A stretch of DNA of 64,000 nucleotides from Catajapyx aquilonaris (lineage: Eukaryota). The translations under genes were made by a program, and so were the position numbers. Under the pieces are notes generated by a model. The model did not search any database. It was not told the DNA's origin and worked only from the letters and a program-made list of their open reading frames with translations. Positions 40,281-62,746 of this stretch are shown here, in pieces (within the stretch, counting starts at the first letter, position 1; each line of letters begins with the position of its first letter). Location of the stretch: the NCBI GenBank assembly GCA_000934665.2, contig KZ538146.1:1-64000 (forward strand), given 5' to 3'.

Positions 40281-40611
40281 AACTATGTACAGGCTACTGA
40301 TCCAGAAAATTCCTTGCTATTACTTGAAGGATGACTTCATCCCACATATTCTCGGCAGCTAAAATTTTTGTGAACACCAACAAGATACGGTAATGTTTAA
40401 TATTAAGCCGCTTAGTGCCAAAAAGTTCCGAAACCTGATGTTAATTAAAGGGGAGATTTCAATGCTTGTTTACGCTTGTTTAAGCTTGTTTAAGCATGGA
40501 CCAAGGGAAGGCCACGCATGTTTTTCTGGTTATATTTTTGAGGAAAATTAATTATTCCATAGGAGCATTTTCCTCCTCTTTCGCTTTCATTTGATATAGC
40601 CTACTATATGA

Positions 40612-40710
40612 GAGGGGCACGGTGATCTAGTGGTTATGCCAAGGGTTATGCCACTGCACTGGCCAGCCGAGCTGCAGGTCCGGGGCTCAAATCTTGTCCC
40701 CGTCACCCTC
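40612..40710 (+). mobile_element. Degenerate tRNA-derived SINE head
   Basis: GGTGATCTAGTGGTTA A box and degenerate B box GGCTCAAATC. Confidence 0.45.
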
Positions 40711-40781
40711 GCCGGGTCAGGCCATGGAGGCGAATATGAACCATCATGTGACGATCTGCAATGCAAACTAGGCCTCTCTGA

Positions 40782-40906
40782 GGGCCGGTTTCACCGAGCT
40801 CAGTATATGATAAAACCAGGGTATTTCTCAAAATCCCTATCTATTTGTATGGATTTTCCTAAAGAAGCCTGGTTTTATCATATACCAAGCTCGGTGAAAC
40901 CGGCCC
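40782..40906. mobile_element. PIF/Harbinger-type MITE
   Basis: TIR GGGCCGGTTTCACCGAGCT...TATATGATAAAACCAGG and its reverse complement; 3-bp TGA on both flanks. Confidence 0.8.
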
Positions 40907-42440: not shown

Positions 42441-43229
42441 ACAACAACAATGGTATGTTATCACAAGTGCTTAATACTGTAACTGAATGAAGACCTGATC
42501 ATTGATGACTGATTACGTTAAAATTCCCATAATTGGCGGGTAACAAAATATTGTCATTGTGTAAAGTCACATCTTACCATAATATTTCAGTGCAGAACTG
42601 AAAGATGGCTGGCCCAATAGCATTACAAGGGCCGTTATGAAGTTTATGTCATCTCCCAAAACTATAGAAGCTATGACAAAAATAATATATTGTATGAGAA
42701 TCTGACAACTTTATATCAGATCAGTAGACTAATACTGCAGTATTTACAATACGGTGTCACACAGAATTTAGCTTACATCCGTATCGATGAAACTGTTCGG
42801 CACGATTTTGGGCAAAGATGGTGCTCTCGCAGCCTCCAAGTATAAAGGGTCGTCGTTCGCAAATTACGTCATCTTCCAAAGAGGAATGGAGAACGGGATT
42901 CCAAATTGGGTTGAAGTCACTTTTTTACTTTTGAAACATTCTGCCGATTGCCTGCTAAAAGGAAATCAGATAACTTAGGTGATAATTGTTATGACATATG
43001 GTAGCAGATAGAGCTTTTCATGTGTGAGTCAGTGGTGGTGTGGTGCACAGTGACTACACTGACCATTATTGGCCAGGTTAAAACCATGAATGTGACGCCA
43101 TTTTGTAGAGGAAATTAGTCCGCTATTTGTCCATATTTCCGCTAGAAGCAATGCTCGTCGAACATTACTTTTTTTATTGCCACCCGCGACAGGTGAGAGG
43201 AATATCGCTTATCCTTCCCGCCATCTTTT

Positions 43230-43400
43230 CGGTCCACTTCCGGTTCCGTTTTCTAGAAGGATCCAGAACATTTCATTCCCGCGCTTTTGCAGACGGCCCC
43301 AATCACCACCCCCTGAACCTGTTGTTCTGCGCATGCGCCAATTTCACCCCCCTTCGAAACCCCCATCCCCTGAACATGTTATGCGCATGCGCCAATTCCG
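43230..43400 (+). promoter_or_regulatory. CpG-rich housekeeping-type promoter
   Basis: ETS-like CACTTCCGG (~43234) and two NRF1/Ewg-type TGCGCATGCGC sites (~43328, ~43382) in a duplicated ~52-bp unit, ~200 nt upstream of the strong donor at 43581. Confidence 0.6.
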
Positions 43401-43565
43401 CTCCGCCTTCGAAACCTCACCCCCAGACTACAAAAAAGGGGGTCAGCAGAGGTCAAGAGGAGAGACAAGAGGATATCTAGAGGAGGCACATCTCACCATT
43501 CTATTCTTATTGCTGTTAGTGATCGAGACGTTGGATCAGCATGGAAGGAGAAGATACTACCGGAA

Positions 43566-46500
43566 ATGGACAACACAGCAGGTAAGCAACATACACTTGT
43601 TTGCAAAATAATGTGGCGAATTCACGTTCGAATTCCATTTCAGGGAAACCGATAGAGCTATGGCGGCTCATGCACGACGGTTGCCGCTTCAGCGGCCAGA
43701 TACCGAGGCAAACGCTGCCATCAGGGAGCGTTTGGAAGAGGAGTGGTTTAGGGAACATTATATCCCTGAATTCTCGAATGTAATTAAATGCTAAATACTA
43801 ACTACTGCATAAAAATGTAATTAAATGCTAAATACTAAATACTGCACAAGAAAGTAATTAGATACTAAATACTAAATACTTCAAAAGTATTTAGATACTT
43901 TTGTAAATACATTTCAAATACATTTTTTGTTAATGTGAATTTCTTACCATCATTAGGCCTATTTGGATATAAAAAAAAGAAAACATAACATTTCTATTAT
44001 TATACGAGGCGCATCCAGAAAGCAAGGTCCGTTTTAAAATTATAAAAACCAAAATGCACCCCAGAATTATTATTTACACATCTGAAAAACTAATAGACAA
44101 CTGTACTACACTGAAAAAAAAAATTAGTTGCAGCTATTAAAAATTAGTTGTTGTAACTAGGACCTTTAGTTGCTATAGAGACAACTGACTATTTAGTTAC
44201 ATGTTCTAAATGCCTTTAGTTGCTATGTTTAAATTTTTTTTATTTTTTATTTGTTTTATTTGTTTTATTTTATTATTTATTTATTATTATTTATTTTTAT
44301 TTTATGTTTAAATTTTTAATAGCAGCAACTAATTTTTTTTCAGTGAAATTGACCTTCACTGAATGTGCATATGAAAGTGATTATCTGGTATTTTTCATGA
44401 AGGTGGCAAAAATAAGTGCTTATTACATGCAATATTCTCTAAGTTTGAACAGACATAACTACGTATAGTTAAGCCTGCTGCACTTATTTTTGCCACCTAC
44501 ATCTGAAAATACCAGATAATCACTTTCATATGCACATACAGTGAAGATCAGTTGATCACACCACTGCCAAAAATGGAAATGACTAGGTTTATTTGGTATA
44601 AGGAAATAATACCTGCAGCATTTGTCAATAGAAGTTGAACACAGTTGTTATTTCTGTGTGCAGCAGAGGATAGTCTCTTACAATGGGATTCTCAGGTAAT
44701 TAAAACATTGTGTATGGTATTATTTTTATTACTGAATTATGTAAGTATTAAGTCACAATATTATTCGAAATGCGACACACTTCATAAGCCTGAAACATTC
44801 TCATTAAACCCTACTCTTTTGAACTTACATGCTTTAGTTCCATCAGTTACAAAAGATATTTGGGAATTACATATTCTTTCCCAGTTACCATGCGACAACC
44901 ATGTAATGGAGGTTGGTCATGAACTGTGTAGCACGGTATCCATACCCAGTTAGTGCCACTTTTATACGACATGCAACACACTTCATAACTTTGAACATGA
45001 TCATTAAATCCTACTGTTTTCAACTTCAATACTAAAACAGAAAGCTCCCTTAATTTAGTCACATAAAGAATATGCACAATTCCAAATACGGGCATCACCC
45101 CCTCTTCGATCATTGAAACAACTACACCTGGTTTAAATATACTACCATAAAGTTCCACCTTGTTTGGGAAAAAATGAGACCCATTCTGCAAGTGATCTGG
45201 TAAAACATGAGTAAAGTAATCTGAATATTTGTAATTCCTTTTGTATTCAGTGTCTCCACTTCTCACAACTAAAGACTCAGATAAATAATGCCCACCAGTG
45301 ATATTCTTGCAAAGCTGCATCTGTTGCTTCATTGCAAGAGATGTTGCGACATTTTTCCTACATGATATCACATCTGCATATTGCTTTGACTCCCTATACT
45401 TTGATTAATATCTCATGTTCCACATGTGAATCAGTGGACCTGACATTTCCATTTGCTTTGGATAATGGACCTTTTTGTCACTTGAACATATCATATCATA
45501 AAAAAAGTGTTGAATAAAAATCCACATGTGCTCACATTCTTGTGGGTATACGTGGCTCCAAACACATGAAATGTTTTGAAGCACACATCCATCGCCTTGA
45601 GCATGCCGTCAGTCTTGTATGTGATATCATCGATGGAAATGTAGAAGCTCAGGTCATGCTTCCTTCCTACCAATATTATCATTGGTTGAGAAGGGAGCTC
45701 ACACTGGATGAGCTTCTCCCTACGTCCCTCAATCACCTCCTTTACCGCTGCAGGAATCTGTAAATTTGACATTGAGTAAATTATTTTTTTAGCATAATTA
45801 TGCCTTTCTTGTTGTATTGAGAAAGTATTGGAACAGGCTTTTCCTGCTTAAATTACAACTGTTGCTTGGTTTTATTACAAACAAAGAAGCTCTTATTTGG
45901 AATAAGCCATCACTTTTCACTACTGGTTCTAAGTTAAAATACCATTAGCTAAAATAGTACCAAGAGTTATTAGCTCTTGACAGTACTGATTCATGCATAT
46001 AAATGAATAATTGATTTATATGCATGAATCAGTACTATCATGAGCTTCCAAGTAAAGCACTGCGACATGAAATTATTATTATTTCATGTCACAGTGCTTT
46101 ACTTGGAAGTATTAGGCATGAGGCAACCACAAAGGTATATGAACGTACTTACAGTCACTGAATGTGGCAATTTGTATTTTAGGTTTATTTAATTCAAATT
46201 ATTTTCTTTCGGTTCAGAAGACACTAACAATTGCCTTAAAAATGCCACAGCCTGCACTCCTTATCATTACGTACACATCTGTGAATCAGAAAAAAACAAG
46301 CAAACAAAAGTTTAGATAAAGTACCTCACCTCTTTCAATGAAGCTTTGCTGAACTTCCAGGAGAGATGGTTTCCATTGCACTAATCCTTTTGATACCTTG
46401 CATGATGGGAACAAAAGTGGAAGCATATGAAGGAGGCAAGCAGCTCTCACATCTGCAAAGTAAATATTAAATTTACAGTAATTAAGTGGCATTTGCATTT

Positions 46501-46923
46501 TTTGTGTGGCCTGATTGTGGCCTAAATGACCAGAACGATTCATAAAAAAATACTCAGAATCCACATTGAAAACCTACAATTGCAGCATACAAGTGCAGAG
46601 CATGCTATATACATTTTCATAGTATGGGATTTGACCAGAATACACTGAAATAAACAACTCATGCAAGAGCAACAATTTGCAGGATCATAGCCTAGTACCA
46701 AAACCGTCCTTAGCTTTTGCAAAAAACAGTTGGATACCATGTGCTTAATTTCATTGGATAACAGCAATAACTGAATGATGCACGTAAATAAATAGAAAAA
46801 ATGCCAAGGTACTCACTGTCATCTGGTTTCTTTTGCTTGCCAGCCAATTGCTTCTGCAGCAGCAATAGAAGGAACCTCCTTTCCCCCCTTAAGACCAACA
46901 TAGTTAGCATAGGGGTAATTTAA

Positions 46924-47005
<82 letters not shown>

Positions 47006-50000
47006 CAAAACAAAACAAAACAACTTAGCTCTCCTCGTCACTCCTATTCTGCCATGACAAAGGCTTTCTGAAGCCTACCAGATTGAATATTTTCTCCAGG
47101 TTTTACCAGGTTGTCTCATTCTATGATCCAGATCATATTATTGCAGAGTAAAATTCTAAGTGGCTGTAAAATTTTGAAGCTATATTTCCAACTGCATTAA
47201 TACATTATGTCAAGAAAATTTTGGAGGATGTTCCAAGCAGTCTAGACATTTTAATGAAGGACTTTTCATCACCTGAGAATTTTTGGCAGATGGGGAAGAG
47301 GTGGGTGTGGAAAATGATTGAGAGATGAAGAGTATAGGATTGGCAGTGAGAGTGTTCTGGTAGTCTTACAAAATTTGGTACCCAGGTTGTAATATTCTTC
47401 AGTGTATATGGTGTTTGTGTGCAATGGAAGCTAGAGGTGCACACACAGGGTCATGTTACAATGTTGATTTTTTATAGTGAAATCTTTGTAAAATATTTAT
47501 GAGCAGCTGAGACATACTTTTGGACAGCAGTAATGTGCTGGTAATAACAGGACATAGCTCTGAACATGTTTCTTAATGATGCTTTTGACTAACACTCATC
47601 TTCCCACCTTTTTCACCCATGTCTGGTAATGCTGTAGCTTATTCTTCCCTAACCCCAGGAATAGTGGAAAATAGTTCACCATGATTTGGAATAGAGCACA
47701 GAATAGATAAACAGTTTTTACTTGTCTTGATAAAGCAGTAATTACAAAGTTTCCTAGCCTATGAATTAAGCAGTTAACCTATCAATGTATACTTATATCT
47801 CATGTCATCTCTTTTTAAAACACAAGTGGGAACACGAGTGGGAAGCATCTGATTCTGCATGGCAGACTGATCGTGAAGCCGTCTTGGAAATGGCTAGATC
47901 TGAGGCGGATTGGGCCATGCAGGTATCATGGAAGGTATGACAGCACTTATCTATACTGGGAATTAACTTACTTAGCTCTCCTCGTCACTCCCATTCTGCC
48001 TTGAAAAAAGCTTTCTGACTACCAGATTGAATATTTTCTCCAGGTTTTACCAGGTTGTCTCATTCTATGATCCAGACCATATTATTGCAGAGTAAAATTC
48101 TGTTAAACTTTAAAGCTATATTTCCAACTGCATTAATACATTATGTCAAGAAAATTTTGGAGCATGTTACAAGAAGTCTACACATTTCAATGACTGGCAT
48201 TCACTTATTGTTTCATCACCTGAGTATTTTTGGCAGATGGGGAGGAGGTGGGTGTGGAAAATAATTGAGAGATGAAGAGTATGTGCCCACACTAGCATCC
48301 ACCTTAAAATACGTCGACTCGGCAGTTATAACATCGGCTAACTATGCCTCTCCTATCTGGGGACTAAATGAAATAAGAAATTTAGAAAGGGTACAAGGAA
48401 CAGCTATTTAAAAAATTACTTGCTACAGGTGTACAAACAGCTGGCTAATTCATGTAGTGACTGATCTACAGAGGTACACACACAGGATCATGTTACAATG
48501 TTGATTTTTATAGTGAAATCTTTTTAAAATCTTAATGAGCAGCTGGGACGTATACTTTTGGACAGCAGTAATGTGCTGGGAATAGCAGGACATAGCTTTG
48601 AACATGTTTCGTAATTATGCTTTTGGTGGCAGGGAGCATGTGACCCTGAACCATCATCTGATCTGCACCTGGAATATCCCATAGCTGTTCCCCTTGTCCT
48701 GACAATGGCTTGGACTCATGTCCAAATGAAATTATCTACCTCCTCCAAGTGTAGACCGGGTTCAATTCACGCACAGTCACTGATGTATAAATATCCTCAT
48801 TGTACGTGAATTGATAGACAGTTACTGTACACACAACAGCCACCAAATGCCACCCCACATTATATATGTGCTACCATCTTGGAAGCACCTACCCAAATGC
48901 AAGTTATTTCCTCTTAGTGGTGATAGTGATGATTGTTGTTGCTGTTGTAGTAGTTGAAGTAGTTGTTGGTGATGCTGTTGTATGATGAGACTAGGAAAAA
49001 AAATGAGGGAAACTTCATTTCAATATACATTGTGAAGAGTACCATTGTGAAGAGTACAAAATTAATATACCATTTCTGTGCTACCATTAGAGAGAGATAG
49101 AGGTCATGGAAGAGTGCTACGTGTGCGGGGAAATCTTCGCCAAAGAGGAGGGGATGACTAAGTTCCCATGCGGACACGATATTAAGGTGAGTAATGCAGT
49201 AATTTGTTAAGGGGCGTTCAGACGAGTCAACTTGGTTTCACAATCCGGTTCGCAACCTGCTTGCACACAACCTGAAATACACGGAGAGAATAGGACGTTG
49301 CAGCAACTCAAAAAAATGTTGCAACTGGCTCTGCAACCGGGGGCTGCAACCAGGTTGCAACCAGGTTGCAGGTTGCAGGTTGCCAGGTTGCAAATTGGAA
49401 GTTACAGAGCATATTATGAAGCATACGTATGAAGAACTCGCTGCATATTTGATAGTTGTGACTTCATTAGTTGGACAAGGGTGGCCAGAATTCTCACCAG
49501 AATTTTTTGAGGTTTTAAACAAATGCCAGCTGTAATTTATCCAGTGCAGGATACGTTATACGGTTATAGCATTGAGACAAGCTGTGGGTCGTGAACATAA
49601 TATTTGGGATCGTGAGGGTTTACAGAGCTGTAACTAGCTTTTTGTACACCCTGGGAAAGATTACAAAATTCGCCTCCCCCCTCCACAATAATATGAAAGT
49701 AAAAGTATAAAAGCTATTCATACAATTATTCCATAACCATATTCATGCATGGGGTCGTGGTAGGAGGGATAAAAACTTCAATGAGAAAATAAGATAGTAT
49801 TCCTGCCCAATAAATGCGCCCCCCAAACGCCTGCACCCTGTGCATGTGCCCATGTTGCCCCTGCCTAGTTACGGCTCTTGTGAGGGAGGGTCACAATCTA
49901 TATTTTAATAAAATCGTTATAATTATCTCTCTGGAAAAAATATGCATGTAAACGAGAAATTGTAAGGCCTAAGGTATAAGGCCTAATTTATCAGTGATTG

Positions 50001-53000
50001 CCATTGACAATGGGGGGGGGGGGGGGGNGGAATAGGAATTACTGGTCGCGAATTTTATGAGACTATTTTCTGGGGTCGCCAACGAAAAATATTGGGAAGC
50101 CCCCGGAAGCCCTGCATTTAAGAAATTTTCAGAAAGCTTTCCCACCCACGTAGGTGCTGTCATGTCTTGTAATAGGTGCTTATAGCAGCTGATATCAGGT
50201 ACCCCCGCAAGCATAAAGATGGAGACGGCAGGCCCTTTTTTGGCCTTTCTTTATCCGACTCAAATTAATGAACTCTTTTTGGACCGAGTTAGCTGCTTCA
50301 GGCGTGTGCTCGTGTATTTATGCCAGTATATTTGATGCCGTAATAGCTGAGAATGGCAGAGCAGCCTGCCGAAGGGGATGGCTTGCCGTCTCCATCTTTA
50401 TGCTCGCCGGTGTACTTCTTCGTGGCTTAACTTTTGGAGTCCCCCTTGAAAAGAGGGAATTCATACTGCATGTTGCTTTCCACTTCATGGATTCTTACTC
50501 GTTGGATGCATTTGACTTCATTGAATTTCAGGGACTTACTTTTTGGCTCTTCTAGCGAATCACTTTGGTTCTCACGAATATGGTTTCGGCATCCTTGGTC
50601 CTCATGGCGGAATGCACAGGTGTCCATGTTGAGGGTTTAGGGCCCTGATCGGGCCGGAGGTTGAAGAGGCAATGCCGGGTCGACCTCCTTAAATATGACG
50701 TGAGAGGTGATAATTATAACTTAAGCTCTTAAGGAATGCAAAGGCTTATTGATTCAGTTAACCTAGTAAGAGCAACGCAGTGGTATGTGTGCTCTCATGT
50801 CCCTCATGGATTTCGTAGGATATTGTTAAATGAAATCGGAAATAGCAGCACATGTTTCAAATCGTCTTGACTTTCGTTCCCTTCGCGGCTTATCTTTGAC
50901 ATCTTCTAATCTAAACGCACATTTTCCCAAGGCATTGTTTATTTTCGTGGTGGAGACTTCTTAAATCGTATTAGATCGGAACGCATCACTCACTTGCTTC
51001 ATTGTTTAGCCGGTACGTGTTGTCGTTCAAGCACCCAAATGCTTTTCAATACCTGACACCGTAAGGGTTTGTGTCTGTCATTCTGGTGCGACAGGTTTTT
51101 CTCACTTCGACTCAATGACCTGGTAATATGAACGGTGAAGATGTTATGTTGCCAATCCACAAAAAAACCAAAGAAATAAGCTCAGCCTATTAAATACGGC
51201 AGGGGTACGTGACTTTTGGCCCACCCTGTAAATGTTTATTGGGTTTTGACCATTTACACTTACAGAAAAAATTATCCACAAAAGGCCTCATTTTCTGCCC
51301 TTTCCATAGTTTCACGATTTTCTTTCCTCCCCACGACTGCGCATTATGGCTGAAACTTTATATGCAGTGTTTTAAAATAGGTGCATGCAGGGTGCAGCTG
51401 TGATTTAAAAAAAAAAAAATCGAGGTGGTCTAGCAACGTTTCGGCCCACTTGATTCGGAAAGACCACAATATTTCGAGGAATTTTGTTTTCTGACTGCCC
51501 CGAGGTCAAAAACGAATTTCAGACAAAAGGAATGGTCATTATGAGTCACGTGTGACCTTATAAGGAACATGGAAAGGCCAATGAATGTCCAGAAAAAAGT
51601 TAACTTTTATGTTGCAGAGTGTAAAGACTGTAACCATTATTAGCGCTTCTTATTTCTACGTATGGTCATTGCATTTTTTTTAAATTACACGTTTTGTTTA
51701 AAGTAAGACCGTAGCATAGATTTCAACAATGAATTTCTTCTTCTTCTTCTTCTTCTTCTTCTTCTTCTTGTTACGCTTTTTTTATTCGCCCTAACTCAAG
51801 TTCTGCTGTAGGTAGAGCTTCCAAAATTTGAACACAAATGCCCACCGTCGTGAAGTGAATTCCTACCATTTACACTTTTACTTAATTCCTCTTCAAAACG
51901 CCGCAAAAAATTTAAACCCACTAAAAAATGCGTCTCTATTTTTTTGCTCAATAACTATTCGGAATTGGGTTTCTTCATCAAAGGGCCGAAGGTGCAGTGG
52001 CATGGTGCGGATCTATGTTAAAAATCTCACAGTTCCCACTGCTACAGGATTGGAGTTGTGATTTTTTTTACCTCGTATTTTTCTGTCATTAATTCATTTG
52101 TTCATGACGCCATCACCTAGAAACGACAATTCTTGTTTACCAACTAGCCATATTGTTATTAGCGAAATGTTACCCTGCCGATGGTGTGAACGCATTGCAC
52201 TTATTACAGATTTACAGTTGAATCCGGATATAACAGCCTCGGCTATAACAGACTTGGTTATAAAGGCTGTCCCGGCATGCTTCCATTAGGCACTGTGTAT
52301 TTTCACTCCTGATATAACAGACTCATTTTCACCTCACCTCGGGTATAACAGACCATTTCTTGGACCCTCGGTGGGAAAATATTGTTTTCCAGGTATAAAA
52401 TTTGCACAAAGGAGACGGCAGAAGGAAATTTCGGATATTTTGGCCATATCATTTTCGGGTGAGCTAATATTGCATTTGTGACAGATTTCATTTATGTAGT
52501 CTAGTAGTGCATAGTACAGCCATATTGAAAGCAGAAATTTATGTTTTCGTTGCGTGACGATTCGGCTATAACAGACCTCGGTTATAACAAACTTTTTCCG
52601 CAGTCTCTTGAAGTTTGTTGTATCCGGGTTCAACTGTACTATTAACCCCGCTCCCTCCCTGCTATATCGCCATCGCCAAGTAATACCGGCCAACTCTTAA
52701 GCTGATTTAATTATGAAATAATGTTACAGTATGCGGAATATCTACCTTGAGAAATGTGCCAGACTAATATTTGCTGCAATCGTTGCATTTCGCGAAAATT
52801 AAATAAGTTTGGGAGTTTTCAGATGTGACAGAGGCAAGCCACACATAGTATTGATTTAATTCTTGGAAAGTGCTAAGATTTCAGTAAATTCGGCGGGTAC
52901 GGTTCTCAATGTAGATAATATGAAGGGTTGCCCCGAATAATGTTGTGACATTGGTGACAGTTGTCTAGTTTTGGTTTCCGCGGGTCCGGGAATTGGAAAA

Positions 53001-55470
53001 GATACATGTCTTGGGCATTTCCATGCAAACACAGACATACTGTCCGTTCGTTACGCAGGTTTTGCAGACATGTACTTGCGTATTTTATTGTAACGTGCCA
53101 GACGAACTGATTTGCTGAAATCTTCGCATTTCGCGAAAATTAAGTATGGTTTGGAGTTTTCAGATGTGACGGAGGTAAGCCGCAGATAAGTATTGATTGA
53201 ATTATTGCAAAGGGTACCACGATTTCAGCAAATTCGTCTGGTACAGTTCTCAATGTATATATTCCGTATATTTTAGCGTATTTCATAATAATTAAATCAG
53301 ACTAACCGTTGGCTGGTAGCACTCGACTTTCGTTTTTTTTACGACTATCTCTGTGAAAATGATTTTAGGGACTTCTAAGCGACGAAAATCGTCTCCAATG
53401 CATTCATAGTGCAGACTGTATAGTGTAGAGCATAAGTTATGTGTACTGTCAAAAAAGAACTGAAATTAGATCAAAAACTTTCCCTTCAGTAAAAAAAGAG
53501 AAAACCTCCGCGGCGGAATGAAGGTACTGAAACAAGGCAGGCGCACGTAAGACTTTCACCAATTGATTTAAGCTGTACCATAGGTCTTACTCAAGCAATT
53601 CTCAAGTACGGTATGGAACCGCTCGTAAAATGACTGCTGCAAACTACTCTGAGCAGTAGGTAGGATTTTATTATGAAAAGAAAAAAAAGGGGGGGGGGGG
53701 GAAACTAAACCCATTCTAACAGACTTGGTCCAATCGAAAAAGACCCTCTAAAATTCACCAATTAACGTTTACACGTGAAAAATTAAACGTTAGAGTTAAA
53801 ATCAGCATCTAAAAGAGGCAACGATTCTGCATGAATGTTTCATGGCAATAATTCGCACTAATCGCATAGAAATTCAATGTGCTTAATATTGAAGTTCCTA
53901 ATTTCATAAAACACTAATATGAAGTGGCTCATGGAAAATTAATGGGTGGAATTTTTGTCGTACTACTATTATTATTACTATTAACTATAGGTCTGTAGTT
54001 ACTGCTAACTTATAGCAGTACCATTGCACTACACTGGTACTGCTAAGTTAGAAGTATAACTAGTAGTACGACAGAAATTCCACTAATTGTTTTCAGAAAG
54101 GAAATTTCATGAGTAGTAAATTGGTAATTGCTTGAGTAAGACCTATGGTACAGCTTAAATCAATTGGTGAAGGTCTTACGTGCGCCTGCCTTGTTTTAGT
54201 ACCTTCATTCCGCCGCGGAGGTCTTACTTCTCTTTTTTTTTTACTGAAGGGAAAGTTTTTGATCTAATAAATAAATAAAATAAAACCCTGGGTGCCCAAC
54301 TGCCTGCACCGATACTTGACTTATGGGGAATGTAAAGATTGCCCCCAACAGAATCAATATTCTGCACATTCTTACTTTTTCGAGTCCACCATGCAAATCG
54401 GTTTCTCTAGTTTTCAAGTCCCAGCCAGTGAGAAGAAAATAATCAATGTAGACTACACTTCTGGCCACCCTCAGCCAAGTAGTAGCCACAATTACTGTGA
54501 GTTCGCTGGAAAGAGACCTCTGATTATTTCATAGGTTGGAAAAAAATGGGTTATAAAGGGAGGGAAAAGCAATGGAAGCATTACGCCAGGCCAATTTCCA
54601 AAATTTACATTCAAGTCTTGCTTTGATAGTGGAAAGAGATGTATTTTTTATGTGCCATATTGTGACCAGCCTTTGTCGTGTGCCCAGCCGATAGCTGTGG
54701 TAGTGATTGCAGTGTCAGTGTTCGTACATATACCGTATTACCTCACGTAAAGCGGAATGCCGGTATGAAACGAGGTCGACCAGCATGCCGGTATAACCCA
54801 GGGGTGGCCGGCATGCCGCAATAACCGAGGTATATTTCCGTAATTTTGATCCTTGCCAAAAAAAATTTAATGCTTCTGGTACCATACTAAAATAATGTTA
54901 CTATGAAAATTGGCGAGTGTACACTGTGTACTGCAGGCTGTGAGAATATGTCAGTTCTGTTGCACAGTGCATTTAAAAAATGTAGAGTATATGCCCAATC
55001 CCATCGTCAGCCTGCTTTGACAGGGGAACCCCCTGCTATAACATACTGTTTAAATTGAGATTAGTGCCAATGGAAAACATTATATGGTACCCTATTTGGA
55101 AAATGCGCCTTTTCGATAGCCTTTATGTGAATTTTGATTTTCAGCCAAGTGTCAAGTTCAGAAAGGATAATGTAACTTGAAAACCTCACTTCATACCGGC
55201 ATACCTCGCCCTATACTGGCATGCCGGTATAGCCACCAGATCATACATTATTTCTAAAAACTGGTCGACCTCGGCTACACCGGCATGCGGCTTTATGTGA
55301 GGTAATACGGTATAGGTTTTCAAAACAAGGGACCTTCCTTACAGGAGGAGCAAGAGGAAAAGATGAGCAGCAGTGGGAAGAATGCTCCAAAAAGGGGCCC
55401 GACCAAGAAGAGCAGCTGCAGTGGGAAGACTGCTCCAAAAAGGGGCCCGACCAAGAAGAGGAGGACTTAG
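43566..55470 (+). CDS. Small uncharacterised protein (~121 aa): acidic Trp-rich N-terminus, CxxC-x14-CGH zinc-binding (half-RING-like) motif, duplicated basic tail
   Basis: Exons 43566-43581 (|GTAAGC), 44664-44695 (|GTAATT), 47827-47922 (|GTATCA), 49091-49186 (|GTGAGT) and 55345-55470 (TAG) join in phases 1,0,0,0 with no stop: MDNTAAEDSLLQWDSQWEHEWEASDSAWQTDREAVLEMARSEADWAMQREIEVMEECYVCGEIFAKEEGMTKFPCGHDIKEEQEEKMSSSGKNAPKRGPTKKSSCSGKTAPKRGPTKKRRT. Confidence 0.6.
44109..44345. mobile_element. CACTA/CMC-type MITE
   Basis: CACTGAAAAAAAAAATTAGTTGC ... GCAACTAATTTTTTTTCAGTG ends, with subterminal TTAGTTG repeats. Confidence 0.75.
44350..44550. mobile_element. Palindromic MITE
   Basis: Arms of ~70 bp: CTTCACTGAATGTGCATATGAAAGTGATTATCTGGTATTTT...GGTGGCAAAAATAAGTGC and its near-perfect reverse complement. 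Confidence 0.7.
44847..47170 (-). mobile_element. Internally deleted, inactive CACTA/EnSpm transposon (spliced ORF1 remnant plus transposase C-terminus)
   Basis: ORF1-type exons read DVRAACLLHMLPLLF...WKPSLLEVQQSFIE (46455-46325) and QPMIILVG...AMDVCFKTFHVFGATY, then a frameshift into PQECEHMWIFIQHFFYDI. These abut the transposase C-terminus GPLIHMWNMRY*SKYRESK...RKNVATSLAMKQQ...PVFGIVHILYV...GFNDHVQSYEV (45440-44847), matching the EnSpm GPL..W.MR.E.KH motif. Termini not identified. Confidence 0.8.
46925..47001. repeat. (AAT)n microsatellite
   Basis: Direct reading. Confidence 0.95.
47023..48625. repeat. Local diverged direct duplication (~560 bp: 47023-47587 and 47970-48625)
   Basis: Both copies start CTTAGCTCTCCTCGTCACTCC and share CCAGGTTTTACCAGGTTGTCTCATTCTATGATCCAG and CATGTTACAATGTTGATTTTT. 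Confidence 0.85.
48301..48411 (+). mobile_element. LINE (CR1/L2-like) ORF2 fragment
   Basis: Translates to TLKYVDSAVITSANYASPIWGLNEIRNLERVQGTAI*, the post-RT Y(A)S.(I)W...LERVQ motif. Confidence 0.7.
50199..50415. mobile_element. MITE
   Basis: Inverted GCATAAAGATGGAGACGGCA (50211-50230) / TGCCGTCTCCATCTTTATGC (50384-50403), extending to GTAC ends. Confidence 0.65.
52215..52636. mobile_element. pogo/Tigger-type MITE
   Basis: TA|CAGTTGAATCCGGATATAAC ... GTTGTATCCGGGTTCAACTG|TA, with internal CGG(C/T)TATAAC repeats. Confidence 0.8.
52702..53300. mobile_element. Foldback/MITE with an internal ~160-bp diverged duplication
   Basis: CTGATTTAATTAT...TGCGGAATAT and ATATTCCGTA...ATAATTAAATCAG ends; the block GCATTTCGCGAAAATTAA...GGAGTTTTCAGATGTGAC occurs twice. 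Confidence 0.65.
53465..54268. mobile_element. MITE with ~135-bp TIRs
   Basis: 53465-53600 is the reverse complement of 54126-54268. A further copy of the arm lies at ~39619-39745. Confidence 0.8.
54733..55310. mobile_element. Tc1/mariner-superfamily MITE (CCGTA termini)
   Basis: TA|CCGTATTACCTCACGTAAAGC ... GCTTTATGTGAGGTAATACGG|TA, with internal GCATGCCGG repeats. Confidence 0.8.
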
Positions 55471-56858
55471 CGACTCATAGTCGAAACTATTGGGAGCACG
55501 AGTTATTGTACTTGCTATAACGATGTTAGTTGTTAGTTCCATGATGTTTTCTTTATTTTTTTTACGGAAAGTGATATTATTTTCAGTTTGTGATGACAAA
55601 AGGTTTTTGTGAGAAGTGGTGATATTATTTTGAGCTTTGGAGGAGAAATCTTTGAATACAATTCGTTTTATATTATCTTATATTTTCTTGGAGCATTTTT
55701 TGTAGTGCTGGACATATTAGTAGCCACTAAATGTTTATTTTCGGCATTGGAGGCGCTGGCGTTACCTGTCAACCAATCAAACATTTAGGAAATGCTAATA
55801 GGCTATGTCCAGAACAGTACATAATATGATATTGTAAAAATATAAGTTTGTGACTCTATATACTACAGTGTATCCAAAAACAACAGTCAATCCCTTTTTC
55901 ATGCCGAGGAATTACAATATCCCTGACTCCAATCTAAATACCATTTCAGGATGAATTGTGCTGTCAGGCACAGTTTTTGAGATATACCGGTACTGCATTT
56001 ACTAATAGATAGTCTATTAGTAAATGCAGTAAATCTCAAAAACTGTGCCTGACAGCACAATTCTAAGTGCAGGTTTGGAATCAGGGCGAAAAGTACTATA
56101 AGAATCACTATTCGCATCTTCAGAAAGAGCTAAAAGGTTGTTTTTTTTGTAGAAGAGTGAAATTAACATTAACTGTACTGGTTATCTGCAAAACAGATCT
56201 ATTATTTTCTCGCGAACCATGCATGACCCAGGCCTCAAACTTAACATACTGAACCTCATGTCGGTCACAACTATAGTGCCACCAAATATGACTGATGTAC
56301 CGCAAATACAGCACTAATTTATTGTTGAGGTCACAATTCTTGGGCATGTGACTGAGCAGGTGACCAATGAAATGCTATAAAAAGTTATTTTTACATTTTA
56401 AAATAAAACTAATTCAATAGGTGCATTTGCCTAATGTTCTCTTTCGTTTGATATACTGTATAATTATGTTCATTGGGTGTTGACCACTTCCACTAAACGA
56501 AAAAAATTATCCAAGAAAGGCCTCATTTTCAGCCATTTCCAGATTTTTGCGATTTTTTCCCCTCATCATGGTATTACGCAATATGGCTGAAATTTCATAA
56601 GCAGCATTATGGCATATGTCTGTACATCTGTGATTATTTTCGCCAAGATCCTAGATGGTCTAGCAACATTTAGGCCCCCTTGATTCGGAAAGACCCTTTA
56701 GTAAACCGTTCAAGGTTTTAAAACGATATATCTCAAACACTGTGCCTGACAGCACAATTCTAATGACAGATTTGGAATCAGCGGCGAAAACACTTATTGA
56801 AACACATGTCATAATCCGAGAAATAATACACTTGTCAAACCAATGGTCAAACAGTGTA

Positions 56859-57562
56859 CAGGGCTATTCATAAGTCTTGACCCTATTTTAAAAATTCACC
56901 AAAAATACACTACACAACAGATAGTTGTAATTAATATACCAAAAGAGCTAGAAAGGATCCGAGTTTTTTTTACAGCAAACCCCTCTCGTGTTGTAGCCTT
57001 GCTGTGCCGCTAGGAGGCAGTAGTTAGAAAATGATAAATTATTCATTATAAACAAGATGGTGCTCCACCTCATTTCCATACCCAGGTGCGATGGTACTTC
57101 AACCAAAACATACCACGACGTTAGATTGGACGCACAAGTCCCGATGATGAGGTGTTAATGCGGTGGCCACCCTGGTCACCCGATTTAACTCACAACTTTT
57201 TCTTACTGGGATTTGTGAACGACACTGTCTTTGTGCCTCCACTCACTGCCAATGTCCAGGAACTTCGCCACCGCATCACCATGGCTGTCACAAACTCTCA
57301 ATGATTGACCTAACAAAAATTTACTCCATTTCGCCCCATACGCGAGCAAGCATGTCACATGCTTGCTCGTGTATGGGGCGAAATGGAGTATCGGCTAGAT
57401 GTGTGCCGCATCTCCAGAGGAGGACACATAGAACATTTGTAATGTGTGTAAAAAAAACTCGGATCCTTTCTCGCTCTTTTGGTATATTAATTACAACTAT
57501 CTGTTGTGTAGTGTATTTTTGGTGAATTTTTAAAATAGGGTCAAGACTTATGAATAGCCCTG
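56859..57562 (+). mobile_element. Deleted Tc1/mariner (maT-like) transposon
   Basis: TIRs of ~115 bp (CAGGGCTATTCATAAGTCTTGACCC...) with TA TSD. The internal transposase remnant reads QDGAPPHF...PRR*IGR...WPPWSPDLT and RVWGEMEYRLDVCRISRGGHIEHL*, with a stop and frameshifts. Confidence 0.92.
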
Positions 57563-58406
57563 TATTATAATTATCATACTTGTGTTTTAGTGAAACTAAG
57601 ACCCGAGAAAAATTGTGCGGCACAATGTCAGTTCCTGTAGCATTTTCTGAACATTTTGACAATAAGAAACGAGGAAATTTTTTTAGTTCTAAAATATTGA
57701 CCACAAACAATGACAAGAAACCAATGTTCTCCTCTGAGGACATTAGGACTCAATTGCTGCCACGGAACAGATGAATGCTGAAAAATTTAATGCCACTCAA
57801 TGGATTACTCGCATAGTGCTCTATCTTCTAAAATCTAAACAATAGTTTTTACATTCATTTGTGGAATTCGTAGTAGCAATTCCTCTCAGAAGACAATATT
57901 AATATTAATATAAATATAAATATGAAATTATCTTTCAAGGTCAAAACTTCAGGCATGGGGCTTGCTCCTTCCCTTCTTGCCTCCTAGTGTGATACCTCTC
58001 TATTCTAGATATAAAAATTGAACTGTAGTGCAAAGCACACTTCCTTATGGGTGTATAGGTACAGGGAGGTACAGAACAGTTACATCCTAATCGGAGAAAA
58101 CGTTTTTTGTGCGAATGTCCATGTAAATGGACATTTGGTCTCAGGAGAATATAATGATGTTAGTTTAAAATTAAGTTGTTTAACTGTAAGTAAAACTGGA
58201 CACTGAGAAATGGTGATTAGCTTACTATAAATTACAGATATTTTTCATTGTGCAGCGCAAAGGGGCAAATCATTTGATATTAAATAGTGTAACATATTCC
58301 AGTCGGGTTGAACCTGAATTTCAATCTGGTCAAGTGTACTGCTTTTGAAATGACTTACCCTAAGGATGATCACATGCCAGAGTAAATCGGGTCTAAAATG
58401 TGTTAA

Positions 58407-58562
58407 CCCTGTAATGCCACTAATCTAAGTAATGCCCACTGGGTCATATCTGGCACACCATTTAGTGCAATTTTTGCAACTTTTGCCATTTTTATGTTTT
58501 CTGTAAGTGTGCCAAATTGCACTAAATGGTGTGCCAGATATGACCCAAGGGGCATTACAGGG
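58407..58562. mobile_element. piggyBac-type MITE
   Basis: TTAA|CCCTGTAATGCC ... GGCATTACAGGG|TTAA, with internal inverted arms GGGTCATATCTGGCACACCATTTAGTGCAATTT. Confidence 0.85.
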
Positions 58563-61293
58563 TTAATACGTACCATTTTGATCCACTTACACGCTTAAAT
58601 GTTTCCTCTCTAAAACCCCACATTTCTTCTCTAAATTGTTGGTCTACAGAGGAATTTTCATTCCTCCATAGTCCGTGGTGACAACCCACCTCCCATGTTT
58701 CTCAACACTATACCATCATAATTATTGCTATACACTGTATACAGTATGGGTCGAATTTTTGTCCCACTGATAGGTACTGCTAAGTACAGTGTTGGACATT
58801 AATCGAGGCATACTACTAGCGACATTTTCCGAAGCTGCAGAAGAAGGAATCGAAGATAAGCCGGGATACTGCAAGCCGGGTGTTGACATGCGATTACAGC
58901 ATACACCACTGTAATACTGTATATAGGTGTAGGCTACTGTAAACTGAAACTGCAGTTTATAGAAAAAAAAATCACTTCATCTTGGTAAAGTGCTGTTATA
59001 TTTAACGCCTGGATACGTTTGTACGAACTTTGTTTTGACATAACTGAGATCCAGAAATCGCCCATTATTTTAAGACCAGCACTCAATAAATTGCATTATA
59101 TTTTCCAGCCTTGATATCAATGCATGTGGCCCTCATTAACATTCCTGGAAGCACTGGGAGAGTTACATAACCAAAATTTTTGGCAGTACTTAATTTTGTA
59201 ACAAGTAGAAGGGCATCCTTCCGACGTTTTTTCGACAGATGAAAGATAGTGTTGGCTTATCAGTGACCTTCCATGCAAACCCATGTCGCCCGAGTGTGAG
59301 AAATGACAAGGACGTTTATTCTTCTGTAAATCTGAAGAAATTCATGGATATCCTGCTTGTCTGTATGACACGCTATAAATTTGCAGCACCCTCTTTTTTT
59401 CCCCCCTTTTGTGCGTGTGGAACACACACCAACATGTGAATAATTCCTACTAAACCATTGTTAAATTGCCTTTCAGGCATAAAACAATCTCTAACTCCCC
59501 CAAAAAAATTCCGCCAAGAATCTATTTAAAGCTGAGTTCCATGTTATAAACAGGACACGCGAGACATGTATAACTAAACATCCCAAAAAATTAGCTGCGT
59601 GAAAGAATGTGCCCGAATGAAACCGGTCCTTCATTTCCCTACACAACTCATCAACCGGACCACTTTGCGGACCCAACTCTCGTCAGTGGATAGTTTATGG
59701 TTGACTCCTTTAGCTTCCCATACATTTCAATGGGACGGTGATCAAACCTCCTTGACCATTAACCTGTGACATGAATTATGCATCAGACATCCAGGTAGAT
59801 GCAAGCTGTCTGTTTATTAGTGTCTAGATCCGTACATTCCATTCGCTAGTTCCTTTCTGTGTCGCAATCCACACGAGGCAGACCCTTACGTAACTTCCCT
59901 CCTAATTAGCCATGACTTTCATGCCCCTTTGAATAAAAAAAACAAGTTGTGTTTCAAACGACGGGTGTTATTATTTTCCTCCTGCACATTTGAGTCGTCT
60001 TGCAGGTAACTATTTTTTTGCAGCGAGGAAACGTTTTCTTACATAGGTGGTTTTTTGGGTTCATGGCCGCCAAAACGGAACGAGCAGAGCGTGATCATAA
60101 GCGTCCCCTGGAGAGCGTTGGTCTAAGCACATGCAAGAGAGTTGGCGATTCCGGTGTTTCTAACCTGCTAGGTTATTGCACTGGGGGTCTGTACACACAT
60201 GACGTGTTTGTACAGCATATTGTTACTACCAGCAGGCAAAATAACTTACTATTGAAATAGCTAGGTGATGTGCGTTAGACCAGTTAACGTATTCCGTAAG
60301 TCAATACTATTATAGACTATGTGCTTTTAAGGGTAAATATTGCAGCAAGTATGAACTTGACATAAGTTGGTAATAATGATCATGTGTCAGTTTATATTTG
60401 AAAAACCAGCGTGATAAAAACTTCACAGGCATTTAGATGCCTATCGGACCACCGTACTGTGATGCGTAAATATAACATAATGAAGCTCGAAGGTAGAACA
60501 AAAGTAACAATGATCATGATAGCTTTATAGCAATCTTAACACAATCTTCTCCTTATATGACATTTTCTACATGCATTCTGCACAAATGATATGTCAATGA
60601 TGTTTCTTTAGTGCCCATCTTCTTATTCATTACACGTTTCAAATTGCGAGACTTTCTCTATTCAAAAATATTTCACGACGAACTGGATCAAAATGTAGGC
60701 ACGTGCCTAACAATGTGAGAAACTCATTCGATGCGATTCAGTTGCTTTCTCACCATTTGTCAAAAGGGGCCAAAGCTTATTATGAAAAACTGCTGCAAGT
60801 AAAAAATTAACAGTGGGCAAAATCCACTCATTTCAAGTGTATGAATTAGTTGATTTTTGATACAATAATTCAGGTATAGGTCTAATAAGCGGATGATTTT
60901 TATGAAGAAATGTCAAAAAGTCAATTGTTTGACTCTGNNNNNNNNNNNNNNNTTTTTTTCCTCCCCCCCCCCCCCCCCCAATTATCATTATATGTGAAAT
61001 ATCTTTTTCCAGGTGGCATATTAATTTCACCCACATGGTTTTATCGTGATCGTTACTGATAAAAAGATCAGCCTACACTTATATTATGCTGTCTTGACTG
61101 ACGTTGTCGGTCACGAAACCGCCATAATATTACGATGTAACTACTGAGACGTCTATAGCTTCTCTGGAAGCTTGGTGTCAATAATCTTGCTTCTCTATAC
61201 GCTTGGGCATCGCGACTTACGCCCATGAAATGAATGTCTTAAAAATTAATCAGGCATACGCTAGGAACATCACTGTAATTATTTTATTACTTA

Positions 61294-61407
61294 GGGTGAA
61301 ATTTTCGTCCCACTGCTAGTTACTGCTAACTTAGCAGTTGCTGTGTTGGCAGTGGTATACTGCTCAGTTAGCAGTAACTTACTAGCAGTGGGACGAAAAT
61401 TCAACCC
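61294..61407. mobile_element. PIF/Harbinger-type palindromic MITE (multi-copy family)
   Basis: TTA|GGGTGAAATTTTCGTCCCACTGCTAGT ... ACTAGCAGTGGGACGAAAATTCAACCC|TTA. Related copies at ~53944-54083, ~58748-58790 and ~63953-64000. Confidence 0.8.
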
Positions 61408-62352
61408 TTAGTCTTTAATTCCAAATGTAGCACAGTGCATGCGCGTCATAGAGTATTTTTATTACTTACCATTCGCTGTAACATAAAATTTAATCATCTG
61501 CACTGATGGGCATATCCATACATGGTAGGATGATCTGTGTTGCTCACCATATTAGGTTATTTTATCTTTCTTTATTTTATTTTATATATTTATTTATTAA
61601 TTAAGTCGATTGATAGTTTACGATTATTAGCATAAAAATATAATGTGCATTTTAAAGTTCGATAGTATTGGCTGTCGTACATCCTCGCCATCTGAAAGTT
61701 GGGGAGATTCCAGGGATTGGTCATAGAAGTCGCGTTGATGCATAGCGTGTGCAAATTTTCATGACCACCTGCTAGTTGTCTTTTCTTGTTCTCACAGTGC
61801 AGGTACAACAACGACCCCACGTTCTTTCTCACCATGCATCTATTTACAGCGTGTTCCAAGAAGTGACGCATCACACCCTCAAGTTCTCCGAATTATCCAT
61901 TAATGTCAACATATAAATGAGGAAGTACATTAGACGTGCTTGAAGATTCTTGCAATGTTTCGGACTCGGCAATATTTCTGCACATTATTACCGCATAATA
62001 AGCGTTACTACCGGTTCTCCCATCGTTGCGGCCAGTTGTCACATTAGTTGCATAAGGAGTACTGGCAGTGAATAATTCATTGTCTTACCTGTAGGATGTG
62101 GCGTTCCTACATGGGTAATTGCTAGGATCGGGCTCATTTATAGCCCAGTCGTATACAAAGTCATGGCCACTCTGGCCATGTACACTGTATACGACTTCTA
62201 CTATGTGCATGTGCTGGTGTTGTCAGAGTCAAGGTTGTACAGGATGAGGATAGGTGAGGTTGTCGTTTTTTAGGGGGGTGGTGAGGGGGATGGGTTGAAG
62301 GGTGAGGTGGTTTGGTAAGGGAGTGGTGGGGTGGGGTTGGGGTTGGAGCAAA

Positions 62353-62409
62353 GTATATAAAAGAGCGTGTTCAAGAAGATGGTTAGGTATACCAGAAGTC
62401 CATTGGCAG
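62353..62409 (+). promoter_or_regulatory. TATA box and non-coding first exon
   Basis: GTATATAAAAG at ~62353-62363 and donor CAG|GTGAGT at 62409. Confidence 0.65.
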
Positions 62410-62487
62410 GTGAGTGACTTCATGATTTGGGTATCGGGAACATGAAAAGAAAAAAAAAATCCTTACTGCTGTGGGAGTTCTTGTTCC

Positions 62488-62561
62488 ATTCCTGTGGCTC
62501 AGTGGTAGAGTTCGCTCCATTCATTTGGAGCGAGACCCAGGTTCGATTCCTGGCAGGGATA
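62488..62561 (+). mobile_element. tRNA-like cloverleaf (probable SINE head) in an intron
   Basis: Acceptor stem ATTCCTG/CAGGGAT, D arm GCTC-AGTGGTA-GAGT, T arm CCAGG-TTCGATT-CCTGG, enlarged anticodon arm CGCTCCA-TTCATT-TGGAGCG. Confidence 0.6.
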
Positions 62562-62692
62562 GCAGTCTCCTACCCGTTCAGTGTTGTGTCTGATTTGTGT
62601 GTATCAATAGGTCAATTGTACTAGAACAAACTCCTGCTTCAGTCATTTTGTGTTTCAGAAAGTTGGTTCCCGATTCGGTGTGATAAACAGTC

Positions 62693-62746
62693 ATGAACAT
62701 CCTTCTCATCGTTGCTTCCATTGCCCTGTCAACAGCACTGCCAGCG
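62693..62746 (+). CDS. First coding exon (signal peptide) of a secreted protein; gene continues beyond the window
   Basis: Acceptor TTTCAG at 62658, ATG at 62693, MNILLIVASIALSTALPA, donor GCG|GTGAGT; upstream TATA box and non-coding exon. Confidence 0.7.

What the first reader, a model, noticed from the sequence alone, without database searches (positions are those of the whole stretch)
43566..55470. Hidden five-exon gene for a small acidic / half-RING zinc-finger / basic protein, not assembled by the ORF track
Seen: five short exons (16, 32, 96, 96 and 126 nt) spread over 12 kb of transposon debris. Each has canonical splice sites, and they join without a stop into 121 aa behind an NRF1/ETS CpG promoter. 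The product is tripartite: (i) a D/E-rich region with five spaced Trp (LQWDSQWEHEWEASDSAWQ...DWAMQ); (ii) ECYVCGEIF...TKFPCGH; (iii) a duplicated 16-aa basic unit, SSSGKNAPKRGPTKK / SCSGKTAPKRGPTKKRR. Established: CxxC...PCGH is the first half of a C3HC4/RING-H2 finger; acidic-aromatic tracts typify activation or docking motifs; KR-rich tails act as NLSs. Inference: either a lineage-specific nuclear protein with a single CCCH zinc site, or a truncated RING ligase derivative. I do not recognise the family.
Basis: partly seen in the sequence, partly recalled or inferred. Interest (0 to 1): 0.72.

Follow-up and report, generated by a model that had tools for sequence, protein, structure and literature searches.

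The report
Unverified small half-RING gene model
A housekeeping-type promoter is followed by a few plausible short exons that could encode a small protein carrying only the first half of a RING zinc finger, but the exact exon chain is not better than chance and could not be tested with RNA or relatives.

Summary
The sequence facts hold. The five GT-AG segments join into 366 nt / 121 aa with the stated motifs. The 48-nt in-frame duplication is real. Two NRF1 palindromes sit upstream, against 0.01 expected.

Joining without a stop is not evidence. About 3.5e11 such five-exon chains exist from that ATG. My crude best-chain score for the region (24.9) is mid-range among 16 control segments (5.7-115.8).

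Evidence for a real gene:
- The exon 1 and exon 4 donors rank 4th and 3rd of 7283 GT sites.
- Codon bias is weak (combined p about 0.03).
- A unique CpG-poor 5-kb block runs from the promoter to exon 4.

Exon 4 looks weakly like a RING first half (Pfam E 1.8e-3, below cut-off). No second half lies downstream.

- An upstream strong-context ATG (43541) makes a uORF.
- The exon 3 acceptor is poor.
- An alternative exon (43644-43779) fits better.
- Exon 5 has a second open frame.

No RNA run, genome or relative was available. Verdict: plausible lineage-specific RING-derived small gene, structure unresolved, modest interest.

The parts
43200..43430 (+). Promoter-like CpG-rich stretch. It has two NRF1-type palindromes (43329-43338, 43383-43392) inside a roughly 55-bp two-copy unit, and an ETS-like CCGGAAG at 43237-43243 on the minus strand.
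   Evidence: 2 matches against 0.01 expected. ETS-like sites are not enriched window-wide. CpG o/e is 0.93 for 43150-43800 against 0.72 for the whole window.
43541..43581 (+). End of exon 1. The first ATG is at 43541 (A at -3, G at +4). The donor is CAG|GTAAGC at 43582.
   Evidence: ATG contexts; donor score 7.65, rank 4 of 7283 GT sites on both strands.
43644..43779 (+). It is in frame with ATG 43541, contains a second good-context ATG at 43660, and joins exon 3 in phase 0.
   Evidence: acceptor in the top 3.6%; donor AAT|GTAATT only in the top 14%; codon LLR 10.5 overall, 9.2 in the GC-matched run, p 0.12; chosen by the best-chain search; 10 CpG, o/e 1.04, and the CpG-rich stretch ends at 43775.
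44664..44695 (+).
   Evidence: acceptor in the top 4.5%, donor in the top 1.3%; codon LLR 0.7 over 10 codons. It cannot be combined in frame with e1b (and my own frame arithmetic).
47827..47934 (+). Exon 3 (acidic, Trp-rich). A stronger in-frame donor lies at 47935 and adds four codons. The acceptor AAG| is weak.
   Evidence: acceptor in the top 40%, donor at 47923 in the top 11%, donor at 47935 in the top 2%; codon LLR GC-matched p 0.06; 4 CpG after a 799-nt CpG-free gap; only 1.7% of the 96-nt windows in the block hold 4 or more.
49091..49186 (+). Exon 4, encoding C-x2-C-x14-C-x-H (RING first-half-like). This is the best-supported exon.
   Evidence: donor AAG|GTGAGT scores 8.29, rank 3 of 7283; it is the only + strand candidate exon in 64 kb at its site thresholds (one more on the minus strand); weak RING similarity.
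55345..55470 (+). It holds a 48-nt x2 tandem repeat at 55366-55460. A second open frame (55233-55520) reads acidic and Trp-rich.
   Evidence: acceptor in the top 14%; rank 2 of 397 possible phase-0 terminal exons, but by a narrow margin (10.0 against 10.4, 9.4 and 8.9).
43780..49090 (.). CpG-poor block (o/e 0.23-0.25 in all three introns) between the promoter-proximal exons and exon 4.
   Evidence: the five 1-kb bins 44001-49000 have o/e 0.16-0.37 and all other 59 bins are 0.47 or higher. Intron 4 (49187-55344) has 0.80.
47023..48625 (.). Two copies of a roughly 600-bp dispersed repeat (47023-47587 and 47970-48625, 88-91% identical) flanking exon 3.

Best explanation
A real + strand transcription unit starts at the NRF1/ETS-type promoter near 43.4 kb. 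It splices from the strong donor at 43582 and includes exon 4 (49091-49186), and probably exon 3. It encodes a small, lineage-restricted, highly charged protein whose only recognisable module is the first four ligands of a RING-type finger.

No exon for ligands 5-8 lies downstream. The product therefore cannot build the two-zinc cross-brace. At most it could hold one zinc through Cys-Cys-Cys-His. It would act, if at all, as a non-catalytic binding protein, with an acidic aromatic part for docking.

The 3' end is open: exon 5, or read-through after exon 4.

Shown: the sequence features. Inferred: transcription, splicing, zinc binding and function.
For: - Promoter: two NRF1 palindromes against 0.01 expected, in a CpG-rich stretch.
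- Donors: 43582 and 49187 rank 4th and 3rd of 7283 GT sites on both strands.
- Exon 4 is the only + strand candidate at its site quality in 64 kb.
- In the proposed frame, codon LLR is the best of six frames for exons 3, 4, 5 and e1b. GC-matched p values are 0.06, 0.19, 0.09 and 0.12. Fisher p is 0.03 for exons 3-5 and 0.02 with e1b.
- A contiguous CpG-poor block, unique in the window, begins at the end of e1b and ends at exon 4. The chance that the five lowest of 64 bins are contiguous is about 8e-6. This pattern is what germline gene-body methylation leaves in invertebrates (abstract starts of PMC8857923 and PMC2975444, seen in the listing).
- Exon 3 keeps 4 CpG inside that block; only 1.7% of windows do.
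- RING likeness of exon 4.
- The best-chain search independently recovered exon 4, exon 5 and part of exon 3.
Against: - No expression or conservation data could be obtained (see Tried and rejected).
- The best-chain score is not above the controls, and 3.5e11 alternative chains exist.
- The exon 3 acceptor is poor (top 40%).
- Codon evidence rests on only 621 training codons and is marginal.
- All RING similarity is below the curated thresholds. The exhaustive search gave only C2H2- and BED-type multi-repeat hits and no orthologue.
- The CpG-poor block stops at exon 4. Intron 4 has o/e 0.80. This argues against a long-standing transcription unit reaching exon 5.
- It is not known whether this organism methylates gene bodies.
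- The splice weight matrices were human-like values recalled from memory.
Confidence: 0.4

Rival explanations
1. The chain is a by-eye artefact. The promoter and first exon may be real (a non-coding RNA or an unrelated short transcript), but exons 2-5 are unrelated open segments and no such protein is made.
For: - 3.5e11 possible five-exon open chains.
- The region's best-chain score (24.9) is mid-range among 16 control segments.
- 435 (+) and 649 (-) candidate exons in the window match or beat exon 3's site quality.
- GC-matched codon p values are individually non-significant.
- Exon 5 has two open frames with positive codon scores.
Against: - Exon 4 pairs a top-3 donor with a good acceptor, has a single open frame and encodes a metal-ligand pattern.
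- The proposed frame is the best of six for all four tested exons.
- CpG is retained in exon 3 inside a CpG-poor block.
Confidence: 0.3
2. One reading: ATG 43566 and exons of 16, 32, 96, 96 and 126 nt give a 121-aa acidic / half-RING / basic nuclear protein.
For: - All sites are canonical and the frame is open.
- The exon 2 sites are good (top 4.5% and top 1.3%).
- Exon 5 ranks 2nd of 397 possible phase-0 terminal exons.
- The 48-nt duplication keeps the frame.
Against: - ATG 43541 lies 25 nt upstream in a strong context.
- Exon 2 carries almost no codon signal (0.7 bits).
- The best-chain search prefers 43541 + 43644-43779.
- A stronger in-frame donor lies at 47935.
- Intron 4 is not CpG-depleted.
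Confidence: 0.12
3. The locus is the 5' remnant of a once complete RING-H2 gene. The sequence changes character right after exon 4, and the 3' exons were lost or replaced by repeat-rich DNA. The transcript either ends soon after exon 4, with the ORF reading seven codons into the intron to a stop at 49208, or splices into a fortuitous tail (exon 5). It may be a decaying pseudogene.
For: - The CpG-poor block ends at about 49.1 kb and CpG density is normal from there on.
- No RING second half lies in 49187-64000.
- AATAAA occurs at 49809 and 49907.
- Intron 4 holds repeats with copies elsewhere in the window.
- A TATA + ATG + top-ranked donor at about 62.35-62.41 kb looks like the next gene's start.
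Against: - The near-perfect donor at 49187 is retained.
- Exons 3 and 4 keep open frames and CpGs.
- No parent gene or paralogue could be examined.
Confidence: 0.18

Closest known systems
RING-H2 / RING-type zinc fingers (Pfam zf-RING_11 PF17123, zf-RING_2 PF13639; nearest solved example the RNF126 RING, 2ect)
   Same: Exon 4 has C-x2-C, a 14-residue loop and a Pro-Cys-Gly-His motif. This is the spacing and local motif of RING ligands 1-4. It aligns to positions 1-22 of the Pfam models and to RNF126 residues 17-38.
   Different: Ligands 5-8 are absent from the model and from the downstream window. All scores are below the curated cut-offs. Recalled and untested: the small housekeeping ligase RNF181 has the same C-x2-C-x14-C-x-H spacing and an N-terminal helix with a similar short motif. 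The PPA[SA]K-type motif that I recall for that subfamily was not found anywhere on the + strand of 43400-64000.
Classical C2H2 zinc finger (PF00096) and BED finger (PF02892)
   Same: C-x2-C-G-x2-F, then a hydrophobic residue and a His at the position of the last ligand. The only library hits at E<=1e-3 include multi-finger C2H2 and BED proteins.
   Different: The first His ligand position holds Phe (alignments). Those E-values come from 5-7 summed weak repeats, not from one good match. Pfam zf-C2H2 itself did not score at E<=0.1.
Young, truncated or chimeric gene copies that keep a parental promoter and 5' exons and gain a new tail (general category, from my own knowledge)
   Same: A housekeeping-type promoter and 5' exons with part of a domain, followed by repeat-rich DNA and a low-complexity tail carrying a recent 48-nt duplication.
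   Different: No parent gene, paralogue or expression data could be examined here, so this is an analogy only.

Membership tests
RING-type zinc finger (C3HC4 / RING-H2) | Eight metal ligands, C-x2-C-x(9-39)-C-x(1-3)-H-x(2-3)-[CH]-x2-C-x(4-48)-C-x2-C, forming a cross-brace (definition recalled) | tested here: not met
   Only ligands 1-4 are present in exon 4. No [CH]-x2-C...C-x2-C lies in any + strand frame downstream. None of the 20 C-x2-C sites in 49187-64000 looks like a RING end.
RING-type zinc finger (C3HC4 / RING-H2) | Score at or above the Pfam gathering threshold | tested here: not met
   Best hit is zf-RING_11 at 18.4 bits against a cut-off of 27. zf-RING_2 scores 15.7 against 27.3.
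RING-type zinc finger (C3HC4 / RING-H2) | E2 binding and ubiquitin ligase activity | not testable with these tools
   Needs biochemistry. The joined protein could not be handed to the folding tools.
C2H2 zinc finger | C-x(2-4)-C-x12-H-x(3-5)-H | tested here: not met
   In the alignments to C2H2 fingers, Phe occupies the first His position. No zf-C2H2 Pfam hit at E<=0.1.
RNF181/RNF126-like small RING-H2 ligases (recalled lead) | Conserved PPA[SA]K-type motif before the RING, and a complete RING-H2 | tested here: not met
   The motif search of all three + frames of 43400-64000 found no such exon. The RING is incomplete. The definition is recalled, and no family sequence could be fetched for an alignment.
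Protein-coding gene (generic) | Spliced, polyadenylated transcript and a conserved open frame | not testable with these tools
   No RNA run was listed, no genome is held, and the protein libraries appear not to cover this organism.

The most novel reading that the evidence does not exclude
A lineage-specific, constitutively expressed micro-protein (about 120-170 aa) that has kept only the first half of a RING finger as a single Cys3His zinc knuckle. An acidic Trp-rich docking segment and a duplicated basic tail flank it. It would act as a non-catalytic competitor or adaptor for partners of a RING ligase family, making it a natural 'half-RING' decoy.
Probability: 0.12. Interest if true: 0.5.

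Novelty: new member of a known kind. Interest (0 to 1): 0.25.

Why it matters
If real, this would be one more unannotated, taxon-restricted small gene. It would be a modest example of a domain fragment (half a RING) surviving in an expressed protein. That has some interest for how new genes arise from truncated copies, and for annotating short multi-exon genes that ORF tracks miss. It does not open a long-standing question. Without transcript or comparative data it remains a gene-model hypothesis.

Tried and rejected
- RNA evidence: the look-up of sequencing runs (kind rna, 47700-56500) listed no RNA holder.
- Own genome: none is held, so no paralogue or parent-gene search was possible.
- Protein libraries:
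  - The exon 3 ORF against longer proteins gave none.
  - The e1b ORF gave none.
  - A control 437-aa open frame from the same window (900-2213, minus strand) also gave none at E<=1e-5. These blanks therefore say little.
  - Exon 4 against 1.84 billion representatives gave 6 hits at E<=1e-3. Four carry many C2H2 fingers, one has a BED finger, and one is a bacterial S-layer protein. All score through 5-7 summed stretches.
- Metagenome scan with the exon 3 ORF: 1 of 251 pattern matches passed tblastn. It is a bacterial contig sharing one 8-residue word (L001). Rejected as chance.
- Atlas: no usable hit for exon 3.
- PDB: nothing meaningful for e1b or exon 3.
- Earlier findings of this scan: none.
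- Rfam and tRNA scans: only three tRNA-like elements, all outside the locus.
- Exon 3 and exon 4 as duplicates of each other: no similarity.
- Paralogous exons in the window: none.
- A minus-strand ORF over the exon 3 donor (47808-47984) hit the Vps41 RING model at E 4.9e-4, one of 107 ORFs in that call. It lacks a C-x2-C end. Judged chance.
- Similarity between the N-terminal part and the second frame of exon 5: not significant. 286 of 1000 protein shuffles and 17 of 500 DNA shuffles reached the observed score.
- A bridging exon at 52290-52458 would put exon 5 into that second frame. Its peptide has no recognisable feature. Not adopted.
- Strand composition skews: uninformative.
- RNF181 literature search: 4 papers listed, none useful.
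- The joined 121-aa protein could not be given to Pfam, the folding tools or the search tools. No whole-protein Pfam, structure or complex test was done.

Full report
**1. What is in the sequence**

The window is eukaryotic. It has 40% G+C, CpG o/e 0.72, and spliced-looking genes with PTB/PID and chitin-binding domains elsewhere. They are 16, 32, 96, 96 and 126 nt, every internal boundary is AG|...|GT, and the join is 366 nt = 121 codons plus TAG.

- The five Trp in an acidic context are present.
- So are the C-x2-C-x14-C-x-H pattern of exon 4 and the two 16-residue basic units.
- The basic units are a 48-nt tandem repeat (2.0 copies, 95% matches).
- Upstream, GCGCATGCGC occurs twice within 64 bp (43329, 43383). 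That is 0.01 expected, and 0 of 100 shuffles reached two.
- CCGGAAR sites are not enriched in the window (16 found, 9.3 expected).
- The 43150-43800 stretch has CpG o/e 0.93.

**2. Is the chain more than chance?**

Joining without a stop is not evidence.

I built a crude scorer: splice weight matrices recalled from memory, plus a codon log-odds trained on 621 codons of two other genes in the window. I let dynamic programming find the best chain. In the target region the best chain scores 24.9 at an exon penalty of 6. Sixteen overlapping control segments of the same length on both strands score 5.7 to 115.8, and about half are higher. The chain as a whole is therefore not statistically distinguished.

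**3. What does stand out**

- *Donors.* The donors after exon 1 (CAG|GTAAGC) and exon 4 (AAG|GTGAGT) rank 4th and 3rd among all 7283 GT sites of both strands. The first sits directly downstream of the only NRF1 pair in the window.
- *Exon 4.* It is the only + strand candidate exon in 64 kb that reaches its acceptor and donor scores with an open frame; one more exists on the minus strand.
- *Codon frame.* For exons 3, 4, 5 and the alternative exon e1b, the proposed frame has the highest codon score of all six frames. Against GC-matched open segments the p values are 0.06, 0.19, 0.09 and 0.12. The combined p is 0.03 for exons 3-5 and 0.02 with e1b.
- *CpG-poor block.* The five 1-kb bins 44001-49000 have CpG o/e 0.16-0.37 with raised TpG+CpA, while all other 59 bins are 0.47 or higher. 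The three introns inside have o/e 0.25, 0.23 and 0.23. The block begins right after 43775 and ends at 49120.
- *Exon 3 CpGs.* Exon 3 holds 4 CpG after a 799-nt CpG-free gap, the longest in the window. Only 1.7% of the 96-nt windows in the block hold 4 or more.

In invertebrates, CpG loss marks germline-methylated gene bodies, typically of broadly expressed genes (abstract starts of PMC8857923, PMC2975444 and PMC4378273, seen only in the listing). This fits a housekeeping-type promoter driving a transcript through 43.8-49.1 kb. Whether this organism methylates gene bodies is not known to me.

**4.

- *Upstream ATG.* The first ATG downstream of the promoter is 43541, with A at -3 and G at +4.
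- *Alternative exon e1b.* With a 62-nt intron (43582-43643; acceptor in the top 3.6%) the same ATG runs in frame through 43644-43779. That stretch is GC-rich and codon-biased, and contains a second good-context ATG at 43660. It joins exon 3 in phase 0. The best-chain search chose this route. Its weakness is the donor AAT|GTAATT, only in the top 14%. e1b and exon 2 cannot both be used in frame.
- *Exon 3 sites.* The acceptor is poor (AAG|, top 40%). The donor is mediocre (top 11%). A better donor 12 nt downstream keeps the frame (top 2%).
- *Exon 5.* It has a modest acceptor (top 14%). It ranks 2nd of 397 possible phase-0 terminal exons, but narrowly. It also has a second open frame (55233-55520, 95 codons) that reads acidic and Trp-rich and has a positive codon score. 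The resemblance of that frame to the N-terminal part is compositional, not significant.
- *Intron 4.* Its CpG o/e is 0.80. The CpG-poor block therefore does not reach exon 5.

**5. What exon 4 encodes**

Pfam gives only sub-threshold RING matches covering the first half of the models: zf-RING_11 at E 1.8e-3 (18.4 bits, cut-off 27) and zf-RING_2 at E 0.018. In the PDB the best hits are C2H2 fingers (Gfi-1, E 0.017) and the RNF126 RING (E 0.09).

An exhaustive HMMER search of 1.84 billion representatives returned 6 proteins at E<=1e-3, the best at 6.5e-7. All score through 5-7 summed weak stretches. Four are C2H2 arrays, one is a BED-finger protein and one is a bacterial S-layer protein. In the alignments the first His position of the C2H2 pattern is Phe.

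The language-model look-alike search returned RING families for all ten best named clusters, but at 0.86-0.89, which the tool rates as a lead only. Taken together, 'first half of a RING-type finger' is the best reading, and it is weak.

No [CH]-x2-C...C-x2-C pattern lies on the + strand downstream. None of the 20 C-x2-C sites in 49187-64000 resembles a RING end. A TATA box, an ATG and the top-ranked donor of the window at about 62.35-62.41 kb look like the first exon of the next gene. A second half beyond the window is therefore unlikely.

From memory only: the small ligase RNF181 shares the ligand spacing and a short helix motif. The PPA[SA]K-type motif that I recall for that subfamily is absent, and I could not fetch a family sequence to align.

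**6. What could not be done**

- No genome is held.
- The word-indexed protein library returned nothing even for a 437-codon open frame of the same window. Its blanks for exon 3 and e1b are therefore uninformative.
- The metagenome scan gave one bacterial chance match.

**7. Verdict**

The other readings are:

| Reading | Odds |
|---|---|
| The coding chain is an artefact | 0.3 |
| A truncated remnant ending at or just after exon 4 | 0.18 |
| The exact 121-aa model | 0.12 |

The functional picture is inference only: one Cys3His zinc site, no ligase activity, an acidic-aromatic docking part, and a basic tail if exon 5 is right. Unannotated short genes and domain fragments are common in such genomes. 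Interest is modest until a transcript is shown.

Noticed in passing
window 44001-49000: This is the only strongly CpG-depleted block of the window. CpG o/e is 0.16-0.37 in five consecutive 1-kb bins and 0.47 or higher in the other 59, with raised TpG+CpA. Its edges lie at 43775 and 49120.
   Followed up: partly
window 62340-62410 (+): TATATAAAAG, then an ATG about 20 nt further on, then the best-scoring donor of the whole window (CAG|GTGAGT at 62410). It looks like the first exon of another + strand gene.
   Followed up: no
Both frames have positive codon scores.
   Followed up: partly
window 44847-45404 and 45491-45847 (-): Two long minus-strand open frames (185 and 118 codons) lie inside intron 2, with no Pfam hit. 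They may be the remains of a mobile-element gene. One of the two CpG clusters of the block lies here.
   Followed up: no
window 40605-40900: A tRNA-like head is followed by a roughly 50-nt inverted repeat, so this is a SINE-like element. Three further tRNA-like matches lie at 5313-5384, 30011-30092 and 62488-62561, two of them with odd anticodons.
   Followed up: no
window 47808-47984 (-): A minus-strand ORF over the exon 3 donor region contains C-x-H-x2-H-x2-C and hits the Vps41 RING model at E 4.9e-4. It was one of 107 ORFs in that call, so this is probably chance.
   Followed up: partly
window 900-2213 (-): A 437-codon open frame has weak LRR similarity and a C-terminal hydrophobic stretch. 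It has no relative at E<=1e-5 in the word-indexed protein library.
   Followed up: partly
window 10268-10951 (-) and 6202-6678 (+): A PTB/PID-domain exon and a chitin-binding Peritrophin-A exon are neighbouring genes. They point to an invertebrate animal.
   Followed up: no
window 54726-55317: A pair of 58-nt inverted repeats (86% identical) about 480 nt apart, MITE-like, ends 27 nt upstream of the exon 5 acceptor.
   Followed up: no
window 50012-50028: A run of 16 G followed by a single N lies inside intron 4. It may be an assembly or polishing artefact.
   Followed up: no
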